Virus record (IMG/VR): IMGVR_UViG_2534682161_000025
Strand: one strand, 5' to 3'
Source: a virus
Lineage: Duplodnaviria > Heunggongvirae > Uroviricota > Caudoviricetes
DNA: 40,833 nt
The notes under the pieces are model-generated. The model was not told where the DNA came from, made no database searches, and was given only the letters and a program-made list of their open reading frames with translations. The translations under genes were made by a program, and so were the position numbers. Shown one piece after another: positions 19,633 to 36,035 of this stretch. How positions within the stretch are numbered: the stretch's first letter is position 1; each line of letters opens with the position of its first letter.

Positions 19633-20237
19633 CAGGACAACCTCGCAATGGTAAACTCGTCAACCGGTGGCTGTGGTTCCTGTGATTCATTCTGGCTATG
19701 CGAGCCAGCACTAAGAATCACGCGATTGTACATATTGAGAGCAAATGTACCGAGATCCGCATTCCCAGTCAGCGCCATGTTAATGGCTGCCGCAAGACGC
19801 CAGGCCAACGCCTCCATAAAAATGGCATCAAACATGTTCACATCTGAAACGCGAGAGACATACTTGAGCCATGCCTGCGGCTGGTCTGTGTAGATCAACT
19901 TTCCTGTTCCGTCGGTGTCTGCACCAACTTCGTACTGAACGCGCATTGCTGCTGTTGGATTGCGTACACCAGGAAGCATAATTTCAGTAATGCGCAGACA
20001 ATCTGACGGGTACTGATACGCATATTCCCAGTCAGGCGGTGGATTGCTCGTATCTGCAAGCGCCACGCGTTTGGTAGCAAAGTTCCAGTCAAAATCAGAA
20101 AGCACAGCATCACGGCAGGCCTCAAAGTGCAGCGAACATTCCCCCGCTTCCTTACTGGCTTCCGTCAGGCTGTTAATGCTGCGGCTATTGCCAATATTGG
20201 ACAGCGCACGATTGCAGATCTCTACTACAGAGGCCAT
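19632..20237 (-). CDS. Tail tubular protein A-like (201 aa), by size and synteny
   Basis: Position directly before the 823-aa protein; start overlaps upstream stop. Confidence 0.55.
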   Translation of the reverse strand: MASVVEICNRALSNIGNSRSINSLTEASKEAGECSLHFEACRDAVLSDFDWNFATKRVALADTSNPPPDWEYAYQYPSDCLRITEIMLPGVRNPTAAMRVQYEVGADTDGTGKLIYTDQPQAWLKYVSRVSDVNMFDAIFMEALAWRLAAAINMALTGNADLGTFALNMYNRVILSAGSHSQNESQEPQPPVDEFTIARLS

Positions 20238-25428: not shown

Positions 25429-25443
25429 TTACCTTTCAGGTAA
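25429..25443. promoter_or_regulatory. Dyad site TTACC-tttca-GGTAA (site C), preceded by TTGACA
   Basis: AATTATTACCTTTCAGGTAA; TTGACA at 25407..25412; heads the plus-strand tRNA island. Confidence 0.45.
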
Positions 25444-27983: not shown

Positions 27984-28577
27984 TGATTACCATCCTGACG
28001 TTCTTTGAGTCGCTTCCTGGCTGCTGCTATGCGATCAGCAATTGTCACATTCACATTAACATCCAGACGTTCTTTGAACGCGTTGACATCAACATGCTTA
28101 CCAATCAGCTCAAGGTTCTTCACCTTGTCAGGCCATTTAATTTTTTTGAGGATTGTCTCTATCGAATCCTCGTTCATGTTCATGATGGTCGACGACAGAT
28201 CAAAGCCACTAAGCGTAGTGCGCCAGATTTTCGGCCACTCACGGATTGGTTTAAGGCTCCCATCGTCGTTGAGGATGTCGATCACGTCCATCTGGTCGAT
28301 CTCCACCAGGCGCATGAGAACGTAATCAGCACTGACGCGCATTCGTTTGTTGCGCTCCTCCATCAACTCGGCAATCCGTTTCTGAATGCGTTCATCGCGC
28401 ATCATGACACTGGCTTTAACTGCCGCTGTGTTTGGGGAGAATCCTGCGTTAATCGCTGCCTGAGTCTGGTTTTCAGGCGTTTTGATGTATGACTGGCAAT
28501 AAGCCTCCTGCATTGCTGTGAGCGGCTTAAATTGCGTTGATTTGCGTTTATAGGTTTTAGGTTCAGCAGGCATCATA
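27980..28577 (-). CDS. Terminase small subunit
   Basis: Start refined to ATGATG at 28577/28574 (track ORF extends through an upstream terminator); typical small-terminase helical N-terminal region. Confidence 0.65.
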
Positions 28578-28609
28578 ACCACCGTGGTAATAGTTACCGT
28601 TGTGGTAAT
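28577..28609. promoter_or_regulatory. Two dyad sites (TAACC-accgt-GGTAA and TTACC-gttgt-GGTAA) right upstream of terminase small
   Basis: Centres 18 bp apart; also readable as direct repeat ACTATTACCAC x2 on the minus strand; overlaps the start codon. Confidence 0.4.
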
Positions 28610-31617: not shown

Positions 31618-31694
31618 TTACCTCTGAGGTAATTAAAAACCACATAAGACACTAAATCAATAGAGTTTAGAATATTTTGTTACCTTATAGGTAA
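31618..31694. promoter_or_regulatory. Two dyad sites (TTACC-tctga-GGTAA at 31618 and TTACC-ttata-GGTAA at 31680) between the P-like and DUF1064-like genes
   Basis: Same motif family; a weak hairpin with T7 run follows the P-like stop. Confidence 0.4.
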
Positions 31695-32513: not shown

Positions 32514-33353
32514 TCACAAGAAATCCTCCCACGCTTCAGGGCTGTTCCAGTGCGGAACGTTGTTATCAGGTAATGTTGATTGCTTCTGTCTGCTAATCTG
32601 CAGCCGCCTTGCCAGCTTCTGCTCCCACTGTGCCTGATGGTATGCCTTACCCTCAGCCATCCAGTAAATTCTGAACTCTGCAAGTTCCTGTGCCGTTGGC
32701 AGACTGTCCAGGTAGATTCCCTGCAATGAGCTTTTCCGAAGAAAGTCATCTGATGGTTGCCATTGTTCATGCATGACAAATTTGCCTAATTGCCCTGGCC
32801 CACCAGGAGGAACAAAGTTATTCATCACGGCGTTGTTTGCGCCGGGGTCATGAGGCACAGAATCCCCGGTTTTTGTCCTGCTCCCCCTCTCTTGGTTAAA
32901 TGACTGGTTATATGACTGGTTCTGGATCCCGTTTTTGGGATCATTCAACATCCCGTTTTTGGGATCATTCAACATCCCGTTTTTTGGATCATTCAACATC
33001 CCGTTTTTGGGTATATTCCCGTTTTCGGTAACATTTCCGTTTTCGGGTTCATTACTCCCTTCCCGGTTGCCTTTAATGTTCCCGTTTTTGGTTATATTAA
33101 GAGAGAAAACCCGCACTCTTTTCGTCGCTCCCTTTCTCTCTCCGGTATCTGAAATAAGCCCCATTTTCATGAGCGATATAAGCCCGGCCTGCACGGTTTT
33201 TTTATTCAGGCAAGTGTCTTTAACGAGGCGTTCTATGCTGGGGTAGCAGAGGTTATATTCATCGGCTCTGTCAGCCATCGAGAGCAGTATGAGCTTTAAT
33301 GATGAGCTGCCTGGATCTGTCTCCCAGGCCCAATCTGTTGCATGTCTGCTCAT
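32514..33353 (-). CDS. Replication initiator, O-like, with N-terminal HTH and internal iteron-encoded peptide repeats
   Basis: HTH-like N-terminus; three tandem NGMLNDPK repeats encoded by DNA iterons; precedes the P-like gene. Confidence 0.7.
   Translation of the reverse strand: MSRHATDWAWETDPGSSSLKLILLSMADRADEYNLCYPSIERLVKDTCLNKKTVQAGLISLMKMGLISDTGERKGATKRVRVFSLNITKNGNIKGNREGSNEPENGNVTENGNIPKNGMLNDPKNGMLNDPKNGMLNDPKNGIQNQSYNQSFNQERGSRTKTGDSVPHDPGANNAVMNNFVPPGGPGQLGKFVMHEQWQPSDDFLRKSSLQGIYLDSLPTAQELAEFRIYWMAEGKAYHQAQWEQKLARRLQISRQKQSTLPDNNVPHWNSPEAWEDFL
32925..33095. repeat. Origin-like iteron array inside the O-like gene
   Basis: Seven copies of CCCGTTTT(T/C)GG; first four in a 24-bp unit GGGATCATTCAACATCCCGTTTTT with internal GGGAT/ATCCC dyad, then 18-bp spaced degenerate copies. 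Confidence 0.75.
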
Positions 33354-33649: not shown

Positions 33650-33664
33650 TTACCTTTAAGGTAC
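33650..33664. promoter_or_regulatory. Dyad site TTACC-tttaa-GGTAC (site F)
   Basis: Motif family member just downstream of the terminator that follows the cro-like gene. Confidence 0.35.
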
Positions 33665-33719: not shown

Positions 33720-33950
33720 TCATGAGTAGAAGAAGTATGCCAGTTCTGCTTTTGAGCGCAGCCATTGTCTTGTTTTACAGGCTTTAAAAAGCCCATTCAT
33801 CAATACTTTACCTGGCATTTTTCGCTTACCTGTTAAGTGAGTCTGGATATAGTGACTCGTCGTTCCGGCTTCCTGTGCGAAGGCTTCACGCTCATCCGGA
33901 GTAAGTGCAAGCCAGTGCTTTTTGAAATCGAAATGTCCGTTATCGCTCAT
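33720..33950 (-). CDS. Cro-like small DNA-binding protein
   Basis: 76 aa; HTH-like segment; first gene of the minus-strand early-right operon, divergent from the repressor candidate. Confidence 0.55.
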   Translation of the reverse strand: MSDNGHFDFKKHWLALTPDEREAFAQEAGTTSHYIQTHLTGKRKMPGKVLMNGLFKACKTRQWLRSKAELAYFFYS

Positions 33951-33975: not shown

Positions 33976-34049
33976 ATAATAAATATTCACCCATAAGGTA
34001 ACAAAAATCAAGGATAGTTACCTATGAGGTGCATTTACCTGTTGGGTAA
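33976..34049. promoter_or_regulatory. Immunity-region operator/promoter cluster: three dyad sites plus a PR-like promoter
   Basis: Sites TCACC-cataa-GGTAA (33987), TTACC-tatga-GGTGC (34018), TTACC-tgttg-GGTAA (34035); minus-strand TTGTTA (33999..34004), 17 bp, TATTAT (33976..33981) overlapping the first site. Confidence 0.5.
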
Positions 34050-34104: not shown

Positions 34105-34689
34105 ATGAAAAGTATCCAGGACGTCCGCAGGCAAAATCTCAACGACTTGATCGACCGTGAATTCAATGGTGTTCAGACGCGGATGGCAGAAAAACTTGGA
34201 ACTCAGGCAAATCTGGTAAACCGCTGGGCTCTTGGCAAGAAGGTTATCGGCGACCAGGTTGCGCGAAAAATTGAAGCTGCCGCCAATAAACCCCGTAACT
34301 GGCTTGATATCGATCGCTCGCTTTCTCAGGAAGGTTTTCAGCCTGTCGGCCCAAGCGACATTGGTCAGCTGGCGGCTCACAACCTGGAACGCTGGATGAG
34401 CGAAAGCCGCGACCTTTCAACACAGGGAAAACTTCACCGCGCATCCGGCGTCGCCCAGGTGACAATCAGCCGCCTGTTAAACAATGAGGTCAGCGTTTCC
34501 ATTTCCACCCTGGAGAATGTTGCATCTGCATTCGGGCGTCACGGATATGAACTACTGATTCATCCGCATGACCCTGCAACTATCAACTATGACCGCTCGC
34601 GCTACGCATTGTTACCTGAAACAGAGAAGGCAAAGATCGAAAGTTACATTGAATTTGTCATCAACCAGAACGAAAAAAACAAACAATAA
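34105..34689 (+). CDS. Candidate prophage repressor: two-HTH DNA-binding protein, no recognisable LexA-like autocleavage domain
   Basis: 194 aa; HTH-like segments near residues 25-45 and 110-135 (SGVAQVTISRLLNNE); own terminator downstream. Confidence 0.5.
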   Translation: MKSIQDVRRQNLNDLIDREFNGVQTRMAEKLGTQANLVNRWALGKKVIGDQVARKIEAAANKPRNWLDIDRSLSQEGFQPVGPSDIGQLAAHNLERWMSESRDLSTQGKLHRASGVAQVTISRLLNNEVSVSISTLENVASAFGRHGYELLIHPHDPATINYDRSRYALLPETEKAKIESYIEFVINQNEKNKQ

Positions 34690-34709: not shown

Positions 34710-34735
34710 AAGCCGCCTTATGGCGGCTTTTTTAT
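34710..34735 (+). terminator. Intrinsic terminator after the repressor candidate
   Basis: aagccgcc-ttat-ggcggctt followed by TTTTTT. Confidence 0.65.
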
Positions 34736-34746
34736 TGCCTATTCGA

Positions 34747-34823
34747 TTACCTAACGGGTAATTTTTTTAACTCATATCTATTGACATCAAACCAGATACG
34801 CATAATTATTACCTCAACGGTAA
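34747..34823. promoter_or_regulatory. PL-like promoter with two dyad sites
   Basis: TTACC-taacg-GGTAA (34747), TTGACA (34781..34786), then AATTATTACC-tcaac-GGTAA (34809) over the -10/+1 region. Confidence 0.5.
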
Positions 34824-35004: not shown

Positions 35005-36035
35005 GTGAATTATCAATCATCGAAATCACACCAGACATGGCACCAAGAATTTACGTTGAAAAAGGGCTGGAAAAGTTTCTCGAGCAGATCCGTGAAGGTG
35101 TTAATGAAGTGCCTGACATTAGCACAGACAAAGGCAGAAAGCGCATTGCATCTCTGGCTGCGAAGGTTTCAAGAAGTAAAACAGCGGTAGAAAAACCAGG
35201 ACGTGATTATCTGAAACGCCTGAAAGAACAGCCGAAAGTAGTTGAAGCAGAGTTACGACGCTTCGTAACCGAATGCGATCGGCTTCGTGATGAAGTACGC
35301 CGCCCACTCACCGAGTGGGAAAATGCGGAGAAATTACGCACTGAAGCACTGCAACAACGCCTGACAAATTTGCGAGCACTAGCTGACGTGATCGATCTCT
35401 CCGGAAACTACTTGCCATCATCTGATATTCAGGAACGAATTCAAGAGGCTAAATCAGTAGCACTTGATGAAAGTTGGCAGGAGTACGCAGCAGAAGCTGG
35501 AGTAGCCAAGGATTCAACCATCCAGAAACTGGAAGAATCACTCGCAGTAGCTCAAAAACGCGAGCATGAAGCCGCTGAGCTGGAGCGACTTCGCAAAGAA
35601 GCGGAGGAAAAAGCGCGCATTGAGCGAGAAGAGAATATCCGCCGGGAAGCTGCTGAACAGGCCAGGCTCGAAGCTGAACAAAAAGCGAAAGCTGAAATTG
35701 AGGCTGCGGAACGCCTGGCGGCGGAAGAAAAAGCACGTGCTGAAGTAGCAGAACGTCAGCGAATTGAAGCAGAGCAGCGTGCACGACGCGAAAAAGAAGA
35801 AGCCGTTGCCGAGGAACGCCGACGCCAAGAGGCGGCAGAAAAAGCCCGCCTTGACGAACAGAAGCGTATCGCCGACGAAGAATCGCGCCGAGCTGCAGAT
35901 AAAGAGCATCGCCGTACCGTTAACAGCAGAGTAATCGCAGATCTGATAGCCCAAGGCATTCCCGAAGAATTCGCGCAGAAAGCAATGTTGGCTATCGCTG
36001 GCGGCAAAGTGCAGGACGCGTATATCAAATATTGA
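35001..36035 (+). CDS. Hypothetical early protein with E/A/R/K-rich coiled-coil C-terminal half
   Basis: 344 aa; strong SD GGGAGGAGG; low-complexity charged repeat region 35560..35900. Confidence 0.6.
   Translation: MSELSIIEITPDMAPRIYVEKGLEKFLEQIREGVNEVPDISTDKGRKRIASLAAKVSRSKTAVEKPGRDYLKRLKEQPKVVEAELRRFVTECDRLRDEVRRPLTEWENAEKLRTEALQQRLTNLRALADVIDLSGNYLPSSDIQERIQEAKSVALDESWQEYAAEAGVAKDSTIQKLEESLAVAQKREHEAAELERLRKEAEEKARIEREENIRREAAEQARLEAEQKAKAEIEAAERLAAEEKARAEVAERQRIEAEQRARREKEEAVAEERRRQEAAEKARLDEQKRIADEESRRAADKEHRRTVNSRVIADLIAQGIPEEFAQKAMLAIAGGKVQDAYIKY

What the first reader, a model, noticed from the sequence alone, without database searches (positions are those of the whole stretch)
34105..34689. 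Repressor candidate is a bipartite two-HTH protein rather than a lambda CI-type repressor
The gene divergent from cro has two separate HTH-like segments and no recognisable Ser-Lys peptidase domain, and it has its own terminator. A tandem-HTH repressor could bind two half-sites or two operators at once, which would fit the paired dyad arrangements (centres 17 to 18 bp apart at 34018/34035 and 28577/28595).
Basis: inference. Interest (0 to 1): 0.45.

Follow-up and report, generated by a model that had tools for sequence, protein, structure and literature searches.

The report
Known antirepressor-controlled phage repressor (Rep)
The gene is the immunity repressor of a phiV10/epsilon15-type E. 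coli prophage, a relative of a Salmonella phage repressor with a solved structure that is switched off by a small SOS-controlled antirepressor instead of cutting itself, so the finding is real but already known.

Summary
ORF 34105-34689 (+) encodes a 194-aa protein with two HTH-type helical domains, no S24 peptidase domain, its own terminator, and a divergent cro-like gene.

It is not new. The protein is 100% identical to phiV10 gp40, whose GenBank note already says "two helix-turn-helix motifs". It is also 100% identical to vB_EcoP_ZX5 ORF21, whose overexpression blocked lytic growth. It is 42% identical over its full length to Salmonella phage SPC32H Rep (PDB 5D50/5D4Z).

In that family the N-terminal HTH binds DNA. 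The second HTH-like domain is described as a dimerisation domain, and the C-terminal tail tetramerises and binds the antirepressor Ant. The window also encodes Ant (8910-9167, 89% identical) behind a LexA box.

The TTACC-N5-GGTAA dyads, with the same 31+17 bp layout, also occur upstream of repressors that carry only the N-terminal HTH, two of the three fused to an S24 peptidase.

One modest addition from this work: the second HTH plus tail is homologous to complete single-HTH phage repressors, so Rep looks like a domain chimera. Interest is low.

The parts
34105..34689 (+). rep: immunity repressor gene, 194 aa plus stop codon
   Evidence: ORF. 100% aa identity to phiV10 gp40 and ZX5 ORF21. 42% identity and E=4e-42 over the full length to PDB 5D50 chain A, SPC32H Rep. 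The top Foldseek hits of the AF2 model are 5D50 and 5D4Z.
34105..34320 (+). Rep N-terminal HTH domain (aa 1-72), the likely operator-reading domain; helix 3 is aa 35-43, ANLVNRWAL
   Evidence: AF2 helices. pI 10.3, net charge +5. 53% identical to the SPC32H domain, with helix 3 matching at 6 of 9 positions. The same domain type heads S24-type repressors whose upstream regions carry the same dyads.
34321..34356 (+). Flexible linker (aa 73-84)
   Evidence: pLDDT below 50 for aa 74-83. Highest entropy in the family alignment, 3.09 bits.
34357..34560 (+). Second HTH-fold domain (aa 85-152), equivalent to the SPC32H 'middle dimerisation domain'
   Evidence: Pfam HTH_3 1.2e-9. The model matches 5D4Z with TMt 0.77 and rmsd 2.9 A. 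Domain naming comes from PMC9986798. Homologous to the only HTH of single-HTH phage repressors.
34561..34686 (+). C-terminal tail (aa 153-194), equivalent to the SPC32H CAD/TetDloop that tetramerises and binds Ant
   Evidence: Aligned to 5D4Z and 5D50. 43% identical to SPC32H. Function taken from PMC9986798 and PMC9638917.
34710..34737 (+). Intrinsic terminator of rep
   Evidence: 8-bp stem with 6 GC pairs, 4-nt loop and a T run. The equivalent site is annotated as a terminator in phiV10.
33987..34049 (.). OR: three 15-bp dyads between the cro-like gene and rep. 33987-34001 TCACCCATAAGGTAA (1 mismatch), 34018-34032 (2 mismatches), 34035-34049 (exact). Start-to-start spacing is 31 and 17 bp.
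   Evidence: SPC32H, epsilon15, BUCT711 and Tyrion have dyads at the same place, with a 17-bp pair in the first three. The equivalent dyads at OL are annotated 'protein_bind: repressor' in epsilon15.
33976..34004 (-). Candidate PR for the cro-like/replication operon (-35 TTGTTA 34004-33999, -10 TATTAT 33981-33976), overlapped by dyad 33987-34001
   Evidence: Consensus scan, 9 of 12 matches. This is a pattern match only.
33720..33950 (-). cro-like gene (76 aa), homologue of epsilon15 gp39 and phiV10 gp41
   Evidence: PHROG_35 at 5.6e-13. phiV10 annotation. Homologues lie opposite the single-N-terminal-HTH repressors in L011, L013 and L015.
34747..34823 (+). OL/PL: exact dyads 34747-34761 and 34809-34823, 62 bp apart, flanking a promoter-like site (-35 TTGACA 34781-34786, -10 AATTAT 34804-34809) for the early-left operon that includes recET
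   Evidence: The same 62-63 bp pair occurs in SPC32H, epsilon15, BUCT711 and Tyrion. These sites are annotated as repressor-binding in epsilon15.
31618..31694 (.). Two exact dyads, 62 bp apart, flanking a promoter-like site upstream of the DUF1064 gene
   Evidence: Syntenic pair in SPC32H at 35972 and 36034.
28576..28608 (.). Dyad pair (1 mismatch and exact), 18 bp apart, immediately upstream of the terS start codon
   Evidence: SPC32H has a dyad at 12-26 upstream of its terS gene.
8910..9167 (+). ant: small antirepressor (85 aa)
   Evidence: 89% identical to SPC32H Ant. E=5e-48 to PDB 5D50 chain E, 'Anti-repressor protein'. Same position beside the tailspike gene as in SPC32H.
8871..8890 (+). 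LexA box TACTGTATAAACATACAGTT upstream of ant (core CTGT-N8-ACAG at 8873-8888)
   Evidence: SPC32H has TACTGTATGTTTATACAGTG at the equivalent place.
8819..8833 (.). Rep-type dyad (1 mismatch) in the ant/tailspike intergenic region
   Evidence: SPC32H has an exact dyad at 20013, in the equivalent region.

Best explanation
The gene encodes the immunity repressor (Rep) of a Uetakevirus prophage of the phiV10/epsilon15/SPC32H type.

How it most likely works:
- The basic N-terminal HTH domain (aa 1-72) reads 15-bp TTACC-N5-GGTAA dyads. Two copies of the same domain sit on one dyad.
- The second HTH-fold domain (aa 85-152) dimerises.
- The C-terminal tail (aa 153-194) joins two dimers into a tetramer. 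One particle therefore carries four DNA-binding domains and can hold two dyads at once. The dyad pairs are 17-18 bp apart at OR and upstream of terS, and 62 bp apart flanking PL and one other promoter.
- Bound Rep occludes PR, PL and other promoters.
- Rep has no protease and is not cleaved. Induction runs through DNA damage: RecA* leads to LexA cleavage, which de-represses the small ant gene (8910-9167, behind a LexA box). Ant then binds Rep and releases it from DNA.

Shown here: homology, fold, the operator map, and the presence of Ant and its LexA box. Shown in the literature for the identical protein: its overexpression blocks lytic growth. Inferred from the 42%-identical SPC32H homologue: tetramerisation, the role of each domain, and the action of Ant.

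In evolutionary terms the protein looks like a chimera. A DNA-binding domain, operator set and cro-like gene that are otherwise found with S24 self-cleaving repressors have been joined to the body of a different, single-HTH tetrameric repressor family.
For: Identity and function:
- 100% aa identity to phiV10 gp40 and ZX5 ORF21.
- Overexpressed ORF21 gave no free phage and about 99.99% less endolysin and holin mRNA (PMC9782041).

Family membership:
- Full-length hit to PDB 5D50_A 'Repressor' at E=4e-42, and to 5D4Z (C-terminal part) at 4e-20.
- 42% identity to SPC32H rep.
- AF2 model with pLDDT 83; its best Foldseek hits are 5D50 and 5D4Z, the latter at TMt 0.77.
- The epsilon15 GenBank record calls its homologue 'repressor', cites HHpred 5d50_A, and annotates the dyads as repressor-binding sites.

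Domain roles from papers I could read:
- N-terminal DNA-binding domain, middle dimerisation domain, and a C-terminal domain that tetramerises and binds Ant (PMC9986798).
- Rep binds DNA as a tetramer, the dimer binds only weakly, and Ant splits the tetramer (PMC9638917).

Operators:
- 7 exact dyads in the window against 0.05 expected.
- 18 sites with at most 1 mismatch in SPC32H against 0.65 expected, at syntenic positions.
- The same layout in BUCT711 and Tyrion.

The N-terminal domain reads the dyads:
- Repressors that have this domain but no second HTH (P0139, P0163, P0206) carry the same dyads upstream, with 0 of 200 shuffles reaching the observed counts.
- P0206 has the identical 31+17 bp spacing, and all three lie opposite homologues of the cro-like gene.
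- Single-HTH relatives of the second domain sit in prophage immunity regions that have no repeated perfect 5-bp dyad of any sequence, so no TTACC-N5-GGTAA operator set.
- The N-terminal domain is basic (pI 10.3, net +5), whereas the second domain is neutral.
- Against SPC32H, helix 3 of the N-terminal domain matches at 6 of 9 positions and helix 3 of the second domain at 2 of 8, although both phages use the same half-site.

Induction module:
- Ant is 89% identical to SPC32H Ant and matches 5D50_E at 5e-48.
- The LexA box lies at 8873-8888, and SPC32H has one at the same place.

No self-cleavage: no S24 domain.
Against: - Rep is only 42% identical to the crystallised protein, and the second domain only 32%. 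Tetramerisation, the Ant interface and the 'trans' pairing of the N-terminal domains are extrapolated.
- I could not read the primary SPC32H papers (PMC4983836, PMC3807360) or the epsilon15 paper (PMC2698709); searches failed. I therefore cannot say whether DNA binding by the second domain was ever tested.
- The second domain keeps the three residues that are invariant in the single-HTH family, where that HTH must be the DNA binder. These are Q107, Q118 and R123. SPC32H has E and P at the first two.
- Helix 3 of the second domain is as conserved across the two-HTH family as helix 3 of the N-terminal domain (1.12 against 1.35 bits). A residual DNA contact is therefore not excluded.
- The ZX5 study tested a different, Bro-N antirepressor, not the small Ant. 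That Bro-N gene is absent from this window.
- The promoters are consensus matches only.
Confidence: 0.85

Rival explanations
1. One reading: both HTH domains of each chain contact DNA. Either each reads one half-site, or the second domain reads a separate motif or flanking DNA. The tandem HTH would then be what matches the paired dyads.
For: - The second domain scores as a bona fide HTH_3 (1.2e-9).
- It is homologous to the only HTH of a large family of phage repressors (77 of the top 150 representatives).
- In the phiV10 clade it keeps that family's invariant Q, Q and R.
- Its helix 3 is well conserved.
- In the SPC32H tetramer, pairs of second domains sit where p53 and Rco place their DNA-binding domains (PMC9986798).
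Against: - Both half-sites of each dyad are identical, yet the two HTHs show no detectable similarity to each other.
- The same dyads, with the same 31+17 spacing, occur with repressors that lack the second HTH.
- SPC32H and epsilon15 use the same dyads although their second-domain helix 3 differs at 6 of 8 positions and has lost two of the three invariant residues.
- The second domain is electrically neutral.
- The literature calls it a dimerisation domain.
Confidence: 0.1
2. Rep is a lambda CI/LexA-type repressor that RecA-stimulated self-cleavage inactivates.
For: The N-terminal domain belongs to a domain type that is often fused to S24 peptidases (P0139, P0163, P0158, P0185, P0195, P0176).
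Against: - No S24 hit even at E<=1.
- The C-terminal half aligns to the non-protease part of 5D4Z.
- The sequence has no Ala-Gly or Cys-Gly site.
- A LexA-controlled Ant is present instead.
Confidence: 0.01
3. The ORF is a regulator, but another gene in the prophage is the true immunity repressor.
For: The window contains other small regulators: the cro-like gene, and AlpA-like and PerC-like genes.
Against: - Overexpression of the identical protein blocks the lytic cycle.
- Its position, the divergent cro-like gene, the flanking operators and its own terminator are those of a repressor.
- The homologues are annotated and characterised as Rep or repressor.
Confidence: 0.03

Closest known systems
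Salmonella phage SPC32H Rep-Ant system (PDB 5D50, 5D4Z; Kim & Ryu 2013; Kim et al. 2016, as cited in PMC9638917 and PMC9986798)
   Same: - Same genus.
- Same three-part Rep: N-terminal HTH, middle HTH-fold dimerisation domain, C-terminal tetramerisation and Ant-binding tail.
- Same 15-bp TTACC-N5-GGTAA operators at syntenic positions.
- Same small Ant beside the tailspike gene, behind a LexA box.
   Different: - Rep is only 42% identical (N-terminal domain 53%, second domain 32%, tail 43%), while Ant is 89% identical.
- The phiV10-clade second domain keeps Q107 and Q118, where SPC32H has E and P.
- The middle OR dyad is degenerate here (2 mismatches).
- OL has two dyads with at most 1 mismatch here against three in SPC32H.
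phiV10 gp40 and vB_EcoP_ZX5 ORF21 (E. coli Uetakevirus repressors)
   Same: Identical protein sequence. The phiV10 record already notes 'two helix-turn-helix motifs' and 'putative transcriptional repressor'. ZX5 ORF21 was shown to block lytic growth.
   Different: ZX5 carries an extra ash gene and a Bro-N antirepressor gene downstream of ant, which this prophage lacks. This prophage also has an IS2 inserted in its O-acetyltransferase gene.
Lambda CI / P22 C2 / LexA-type S24 repressors
   Same: A divergent repressor/cro arrangement, three operators at OR, further operators at OL, and an SOS-linked induction route. The N-terminal domain type of Rep is also found fused to S24 peptidases, with the same dyads upstream.
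   Different: No S24 domain and no cleavage site. The SOS signal arrives through LexA-controlled Ant. The working form is a tetramer, and there are operators at several additional promoters.
Rco of plasmid pLS20 and the p53 tetramerisation domain (TetDloop)
   Same: A DNA-binding domain followed by a C-terminal beta-strand/helix tetramerisation domain. A partner protein relieves repression (PMC9986798).
   Different: Rep has an extra HTH-fold domain between the DNA-binding domain and the tetramerisation domain. I did not test the structural similarity of the tail here.
CTX-phi RstR family (NCBIfam NF041951)
   Same: A single HTH plus a short C-terminal oligomerisation region. 21 of 32 single-HTH relatives of the Rep second-domain-plus-tail module, and Rep itself, hit this profile over nearly its whole length.
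   Different: All scores are far below the curated cutoff (19.7 bits for Rep against 80), so this is a distant resemblance and not membership.
Antirepressor-induced prophages (Gifsy/Fels-2, coliphage 186 Tum, P22 Ant)
   Same: A non-cleavable repressor is inactivated by an antirepressor that LexA keeps off (general knowledge; PMC7380047 lists these systems).
   Different: The repressor and antirepressor folds are unrelated. I detected no homology to them here.

Membership tests
SPC32H-type Rep (Uetakevirus repressor, PDB 5D50/5D4Z) | Full-length sequence homology to Rep | tested here: met
   phmmer E=4e-42 over aa 1-190. BLASTP 42% identity, 2e-53.
SPC32H-type Rep (Uetakevirus repressor, PDB 5D50/5D4Z) | Three-part fold: N-terminal HTH, middle helical dimerisation domain, C-terminal tail | tested here: met
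   AF2 pLDDT 83 with two helical bundles, a disordered linker and a C-terminal helix. Foldseek best hits are 5D50 and 5D4Z, with TMt 0.77 for the C-terminal half. The monomer model shows no beta-strand in the tail; my inference is that any strand there would form only on oligomerisation, which the monomer model cannot show.
SPC32H-type Rep (Uetakevirus repressor, PDB 5D50/5D4Z) | Cognate small Ant encoded beside the tailspike gene | tested here: met
   8910-9167 (+). 89% identical to SPC32H Ant. 5D50_E at 5e-48. Synteny.
SPC32H-type Rep (Uetakevirus repressor, PDB 5D50/5D4Z) | LexA box controlling ant | tested here: met
   CTGTATAAACATACAG at 8873-8888, 21 bp upstream of the ant ATG. SPC32H has one at the same place. 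This is sequence evidence only; LexA binding was not tested.
SPC32H-type Rep (Uetakevirus repressor, PDB 5D50/5D4Z) | TTACC-N5-GGTAA operators at OR, OL and other syntenic promoters | tested here: met
   Annotated as repressor sites in epsilon15.
SPC32H-type Rep (Uetakevirus repressor, PDB 5D50/5D4Z) | Tetramer is the DNA-binding form; Ant disassembles it | not testable with these tools
   Known for SPC32H only, through secondary sources. It would need SEC-MALS or EMSA, or a multimer prediction.
SPC32H-type Rep (Uetakevirus repressor, PDB 5D50/5D4Z) | Confers immunity and blocks lytic growth | not tested
   Not testable in silico. Reported for the identical ZX5 ORF21 (PMC9782041).
Lambda CI/LexA-type self-cleaving repressors | C-terminal S24 peptidase domain with a Ser-Lys dyad | tested here: not met
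   No Peptidase_S24 hit at E<=1. The C-terminal half aligns to 5D4Z instead.
Lambda CI/LexA-type self-cleaving repressors | Ala-Gly or Cys-Gly cleavage site in the linker | tested here: not met
   Neither dipeptide occurs anywhere in the 194-aa sequence (sequence).
CTX-phi RstR family (NF041951) | Score above the curated NCBIfam cutoff (80 bits) | tested here: not met
   19.7 bits, E=7.7e-4, over aa 106-192.
   The same dyads and the same 31+17 spacing occur upstream of repressors that have only the N-terminal HTH.
   The sequence keeps HTH_3 hallmarks (Q107, Q118, R123). No binding data or coordinates were available.

The most novel reading that the evidence does not exclude
Rep may be an evolutionary chimera whose second HTH is a former DNA-binding domain that still works.

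What the evidence shows: a cassette of DNA-binding domain, operators and cro-like gene, otherwise found with S24 self-cleaving repressors, has been joined to a complete single-HTH, tetramer-forming, RstR-like repressor.

What remains possible: in the phiV10 clade the former DNA-binding domain keeps its invariant Q/Q/R residues and may still touch DNA. A tetramer would then carry eight HTHs, which could help wrap or bridge the 62-bp dyad pairs that flank promoters.
Probability: 0.1. Interest if true: 0.5.

Novelty: already known. Interest (0 to 1): 0.15.

Why it matters
The finding matters little as a discovery. The two-HTH note is already in the phiV10 GenBank record, a 42%-identical homologue has crystal structures alone and with its antirepressor, and the identical protein has been shown to block lytic growth.

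It is useful for annotation. About 10% of complete E. coli genomes (562 of 5426) carry this immunity region, where the repressor is labelled only 'helix-turn-helix domain-containing protein' and the 85-aa Ant falls among the unnamed 'hypothetical proteins'. Together they can now be read as a Rep/Ant/LexA induction switch.

The modest new point is evolutionary. The operator-reading domain and the oligomerisation/induction body of this repressor have separate histories. This shows how a phage can change its induction route from RecA-driven self-cleavage to a LexA-controlled antirepressor without changing its operators.

Tried and rejected
- **Primary papers.** The SPC32H papers (PMC4983836, PMC3807360) and the epsilon15 genome paper (PMC2698709, PMID 17825342) are not held. 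Domain roles therefore rest on secondary descriptions.
- **Internal duplication.** BLASTP of the N-terminal domain against the second domain gave no alignment, so I found no evidence that the two HTHs arose by duplication.
- **Covariation between helix 3 and operator within the genus.** This was uninformative. All five Uetakevirus genomes share both the ANLVNRW-type helix and the TTACC half-site.
- **A shared operator in the single-HTH relatives (L006, L009, L010).** I found no repeated perfect 5-bp dyad and no TTACC sites. Their own operators remain undefined.
- **Pseudomonas phage PseuP_224 cI, a hit to the N-terminal domain.** Dyad matches were not above chance.
- **P0138 (two HTHs plus S24).** The contig is too short and has no divergent intergenic region to examine.
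- **A ZX5-type Bro-N antirepressor in the window.** None was found among the window ORFs I scanned. Only the small Ant is present.
- **A PRM promoter for rep.** The consensus scan found no site upstream of rep, so I make no claim.
Full report
**1. What is at the coordinates**

ORF 34105-34689 (+) encodes 194 aa.

- Pfam places a significant HTH_3 at aa 106-147 (E=1.2e-9, 38.5 bits against a 23-bit cutoff). It gives only sub-threshold HTH hits (YdaS_toxin, DUF739) at aa 20-61, and no S24 peptidase even at E<=1.
- PHROG repressor and regulator families cover both halves.
- An AlphaFold2 model built on 54 homologues (mean pLDDT 83) has a four-helix N-terminal bundle (aa 4-59), a disordered linker (aa 74-83, pLDDT below 50), a five-helix second bundle (aa 85-151), and a C-terminal tail ending in a long helix (aa 172-193).
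- A hairpin at 34710-34729 followed by a T run lies after the stop codon.
- The divergent 76-aa gene at 33720-33950 matches PHROG_35 'transcriptional repressor'.

**2. Where the window comes from**

The region is 98-99% identical in DNA to Escherichia phage phiV10 and its relatives (genus Uetakevirus). It occurs in 562 of 5426 complete E. coli genomes. The window is a nearly complete prophage, with lysis genes, tailspike, structural genes, terminase, replication genes, recET and integrase.

The protein is 100% identical to phiV10 gp40 and to vB_EcoP_ZX5 ORF21.

- The phiV10 GenBank note already reads 'two helix-turn-helix motifs (PF01381); similar to putative repressor epsilon15p38'.
- In ZX5, overexpressed ORF21 left no free phage and lowered endolysin and holin transcripts by about 99.99% (PMC9782041).

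**3. A solved homologue**

The protein matches PDB 5D50 chain A ('Repressor', 199 aa) over its full length at E=4e-42, and 5D4Z (the C-terminal 107 aa) at 4e-20. These chains are Rep of Salmonella phage SPC32H, which is 42% identical. The AF2 model finds the same entries first by Foldseek, with TMt 0.77 and rmsd 2.9 A for the C-terminal half. Generic Xre-type HTH proteins follow.

I could not open the primary papers. Two later papers summarise them.

- Rep has an N-terminal DNA-binding domain, a middle dimerisation domain, and a C-terminal domain that tetramerises and binds the antirepressor Ant (PMC9986798).
- Rep binds DNA as a tetramer and the dimer binds only weakly. The pairs of DNA-binding domains on a palindrome come from different dimers. 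Ant, itself a tetramer, binds two Rep dimers and breaks up the tetramer (PMC9638917).

The epsilon15 GenBank record also labels its homologue 'repressor; HHpred 5d50_A'.

**4. The induction module is present**

Between the tailspike gene and the neighbouring virion gene lies an 85-aa ORF (8910-9167, +). It is 89% identical to SPC32H Ant and matches 5D50 chain E, 'Anti-repressor protein', at 5e-48.

Twenty-one bases upstream of its ATG is a LexA box, TACTGTATAAACATACAGTT (CTGT-N8-ACAG at 8873-8888). SPC32H has one at the same place.

The Bro-N antirepressor tested in the ZX5 paper is absent from this window. ZX5 also has the small Ant (99% identical), annotated only as hypothetical.

**5. Operators**

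The 15-bp dyad TTACC-N5-GGTAA occurs 7 times exactly in the window against 0.05 expected. With up to 2 mismatches there are 37 sites against 10.8 expected. The sites cluster as follows:

| Location | Sites (mismatches) | Spacing | Context |
|---|---|---|---|
| OR | 33987 (1), 34018 (2), 34035 (0) | 31 and 17 bp | 33987 overlaps a PR-like promoter |
| OL | 34747 (0), 34809 (0) | 62 bp | flank a strong promoter-like site, TTGACA-17-AATTAT |
| Upstream of the DUF1064 gene | 31618 (0), 31680 (0) | 62 bp | flank a promoter-like site |
| Upstream of terS | 28576 (1), 28594 (0) | 18 bp | directly before the start codon |
| Single sites | 25429 (0), 33650 (1), 8819 (1), 3177 (1) | n/a | 8819 is in the ant/tailspike intergenic region |

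SPC32H has 18 sites with at most 1 mismatch against 0.65 expected, at syntenic places and with the same 17-bp and 62-bp spacings. Epsilon15, Klebsiella phage BUCT711 and Enterobacter phage Tyrion show the same pattern. In epsilon15 the OL dyads are annotated 'protein_bind: repressor'.

The quoted 'centres' are actually the first bases of the dyads.

**6. Which HTH reads the dyads**

Within the genus there is no variation to exploit. All members share the half-site and an ANLVNRW-type helix 3 in the N-terminal domain. I therefore searched 1.84 billion representative proteins with a family profile and sorted the top 150 hits. Twelve have both domains, 77 have only the second HTH plus tail, and 37 have only the N-terminal domain.

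*N-terminal domain alone.* It is commonly fused to an S24 peptidase (P0139, P0163, P0158, P0185, P0195, P0176). I could fetch contigs for three such repressors, and all have the same dyads in the region upstream of the repressor gene:

- P0139: TCACCAAAACGGTAA and TTACCGATTTGGTAT.
- P0163: two exact dyads 48 bp apart.
- P0206: three dyads spaced 31 and 17 bp, exactly as in this window.

In each locus, 0 of 200 shuffles reached the observed counts. All three repressor genes lie opposite a homologue of the window's cro-like gene, at 42-49% identity.

*Second HTH plus tail alone.* These proteins sit in the repressor position of other prophages: divergent from a small gene, with replication genes on one side and recombination or integrase genes on the other. 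Those loci have no repeated perfect 5-bp dyad of any sequence, so no TTACC-N5-GGTAA operator set.

The dyads and their pairing therefore travel with the N-terminal domain and the cro-like gene, not with the second HTH. Three further points fit:

- The two half-sites are identical, while the two HTHs show no mutual similarity.
- The N-terminal domain is basic (pI 10.3, net +5) and the second domain is neutral.
- SPC32H uses the same half-site although its second-domain helix 3 matches ours at only 2 of 8 positions.

**7. What remains open**

The second domain is clearly derived from a DNA-binding HTH. The three residues that are invariant in the single-HTH family (Q19, Q30 and R35 of alignment A2) correspond to Q107, Q118 and R123 here. 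R123 is kept in all 25 two-HTH sequences examined, Q118 in 22 and Q107 in 17. SPC32H and epsilon15 have E and P at the first two positions. Helix 3 of the second domain is no less conserved than helix 3 of the N-terminal domain (1.12 against 1.35 bits). This could reflect a structural or dimer-interface role, or some residual DNA contact. I rate the second possibility at about 10%. Checking the 5D4Z coordinates, or an EMSA with Rep(85-194), would settle it.

The single-HTH family also resembles the CTX-phi RstR family, but only below the curated cutoff. That is a lead and not a membership.

**8. Mechanism proposed**

Rep tetramers use four N-terminal domains to occupy two dyads at a time. Candidates are the adjacent pairs at OR and upstream of terS, and the 62-bp pairs that bracket PL and one other promoter. 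This shuts down early and probably late transcription while rep is expressed and ends at its own terminator. DNA damage removes LexA from the ant promoter, and Ant then binds Rep and releases it from DNA. Rep is not cleaved.

- Shown here: homology, fold, the operator map, and Ant with its LexA box.
- Shown in the literature for the identical protein: its overexpression blocks lytic growth.
- Inferred from a 42%-identical homologue: tetramer formation, domain roles and the action of Ant.

**9. Verdict**

The system is already known, so interest is low. The chimera observation and the multi-promoter operator map are small additions.

Noticed in passing
window 3228-6423: An IS2 element (TnpB 4105-5010, TnpA 4968-5378, both on the - strand) splits the prophage O-antigen acetyltransferase gene into an AT3 part (3228-4271) and an SGNH part (5290-6423). 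The serotype-converting or immunity function described for phiV10 is probably inactivated in this lysogen.
   Followed up: partly
window 28576-28608, 31618-31694, 25429-25443, 33650-33664, 8819-8833, 3177-3191: Rep-type dyads lie well outside OR and OL. A pair sits directly upstream of the terS start codon, after a terminator hairpin. A second 62-bp pair brackets a promoter-like site upstream of the DUF1064 gene. Single sites lie upstream of a head-region gene, in the ant/tailspike intergenic region and near the lysis genes. The positions are syntenic in SPC32H, which suggests that one repressor acts directly on many transcription units.
   Followed up: partly
window 32893-33053: Tandem repeats lie inside the DnaT-like replication initiator gene (32514-33353, - strand): 24 bp x 3.6 at 32926-33011, each unit with an ATCCC...GGGAT inverted repeat, and 18 bp x 3.1 at 32999-33053. 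They look like origin iterons, as in lambda O.
   Followed up: no
L017 (vB_EcoP_ZX5) 1078-2346: ZX5 has the SPC32H-type small Ant (99% identical to the window's Ant, annotated 'hypothetical protein'), followed by an ash gene and a Bro-N antirepressor gene. The published ZX5 experiments tested only the Bro-N protein. The window's Ant also hits the C-terminal part of a PHROG antirepressor family weakly (phrog_1760, 5e-7).
   Followed up: partly
proteins P0100-P0224; loci L006, L009, L010: A large family of 150-170 aa single-HTH proteins is homologous to Rep aa 85-191 and ends in a basic tail. They occupy the repressor position in unrelated prophages, and 21 of 32 hit the CTX-phi RstR profile below its cutoff. 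Their operators are unknown.
   Followed up: partly
proteins P0138, P0146, P0156, P0191, P0127: Other multi-HTH architectures are built from the same N-terminal domain type. P0138 (290 aa) combines the two-HTH pair with an S24 peptidase. Other proteins carry two or three tandem copies of the domain.
   Followed up: no
window 8910-9167 compared with 34105-34689: Ant is 89% identical between this prophage and SPC32H, while its presumed partner Rep is only 42% identical. Either the Ant-contacting surface of Rep is a small conserved subset, or the two modules have different recombination histories.
   Followed up: no
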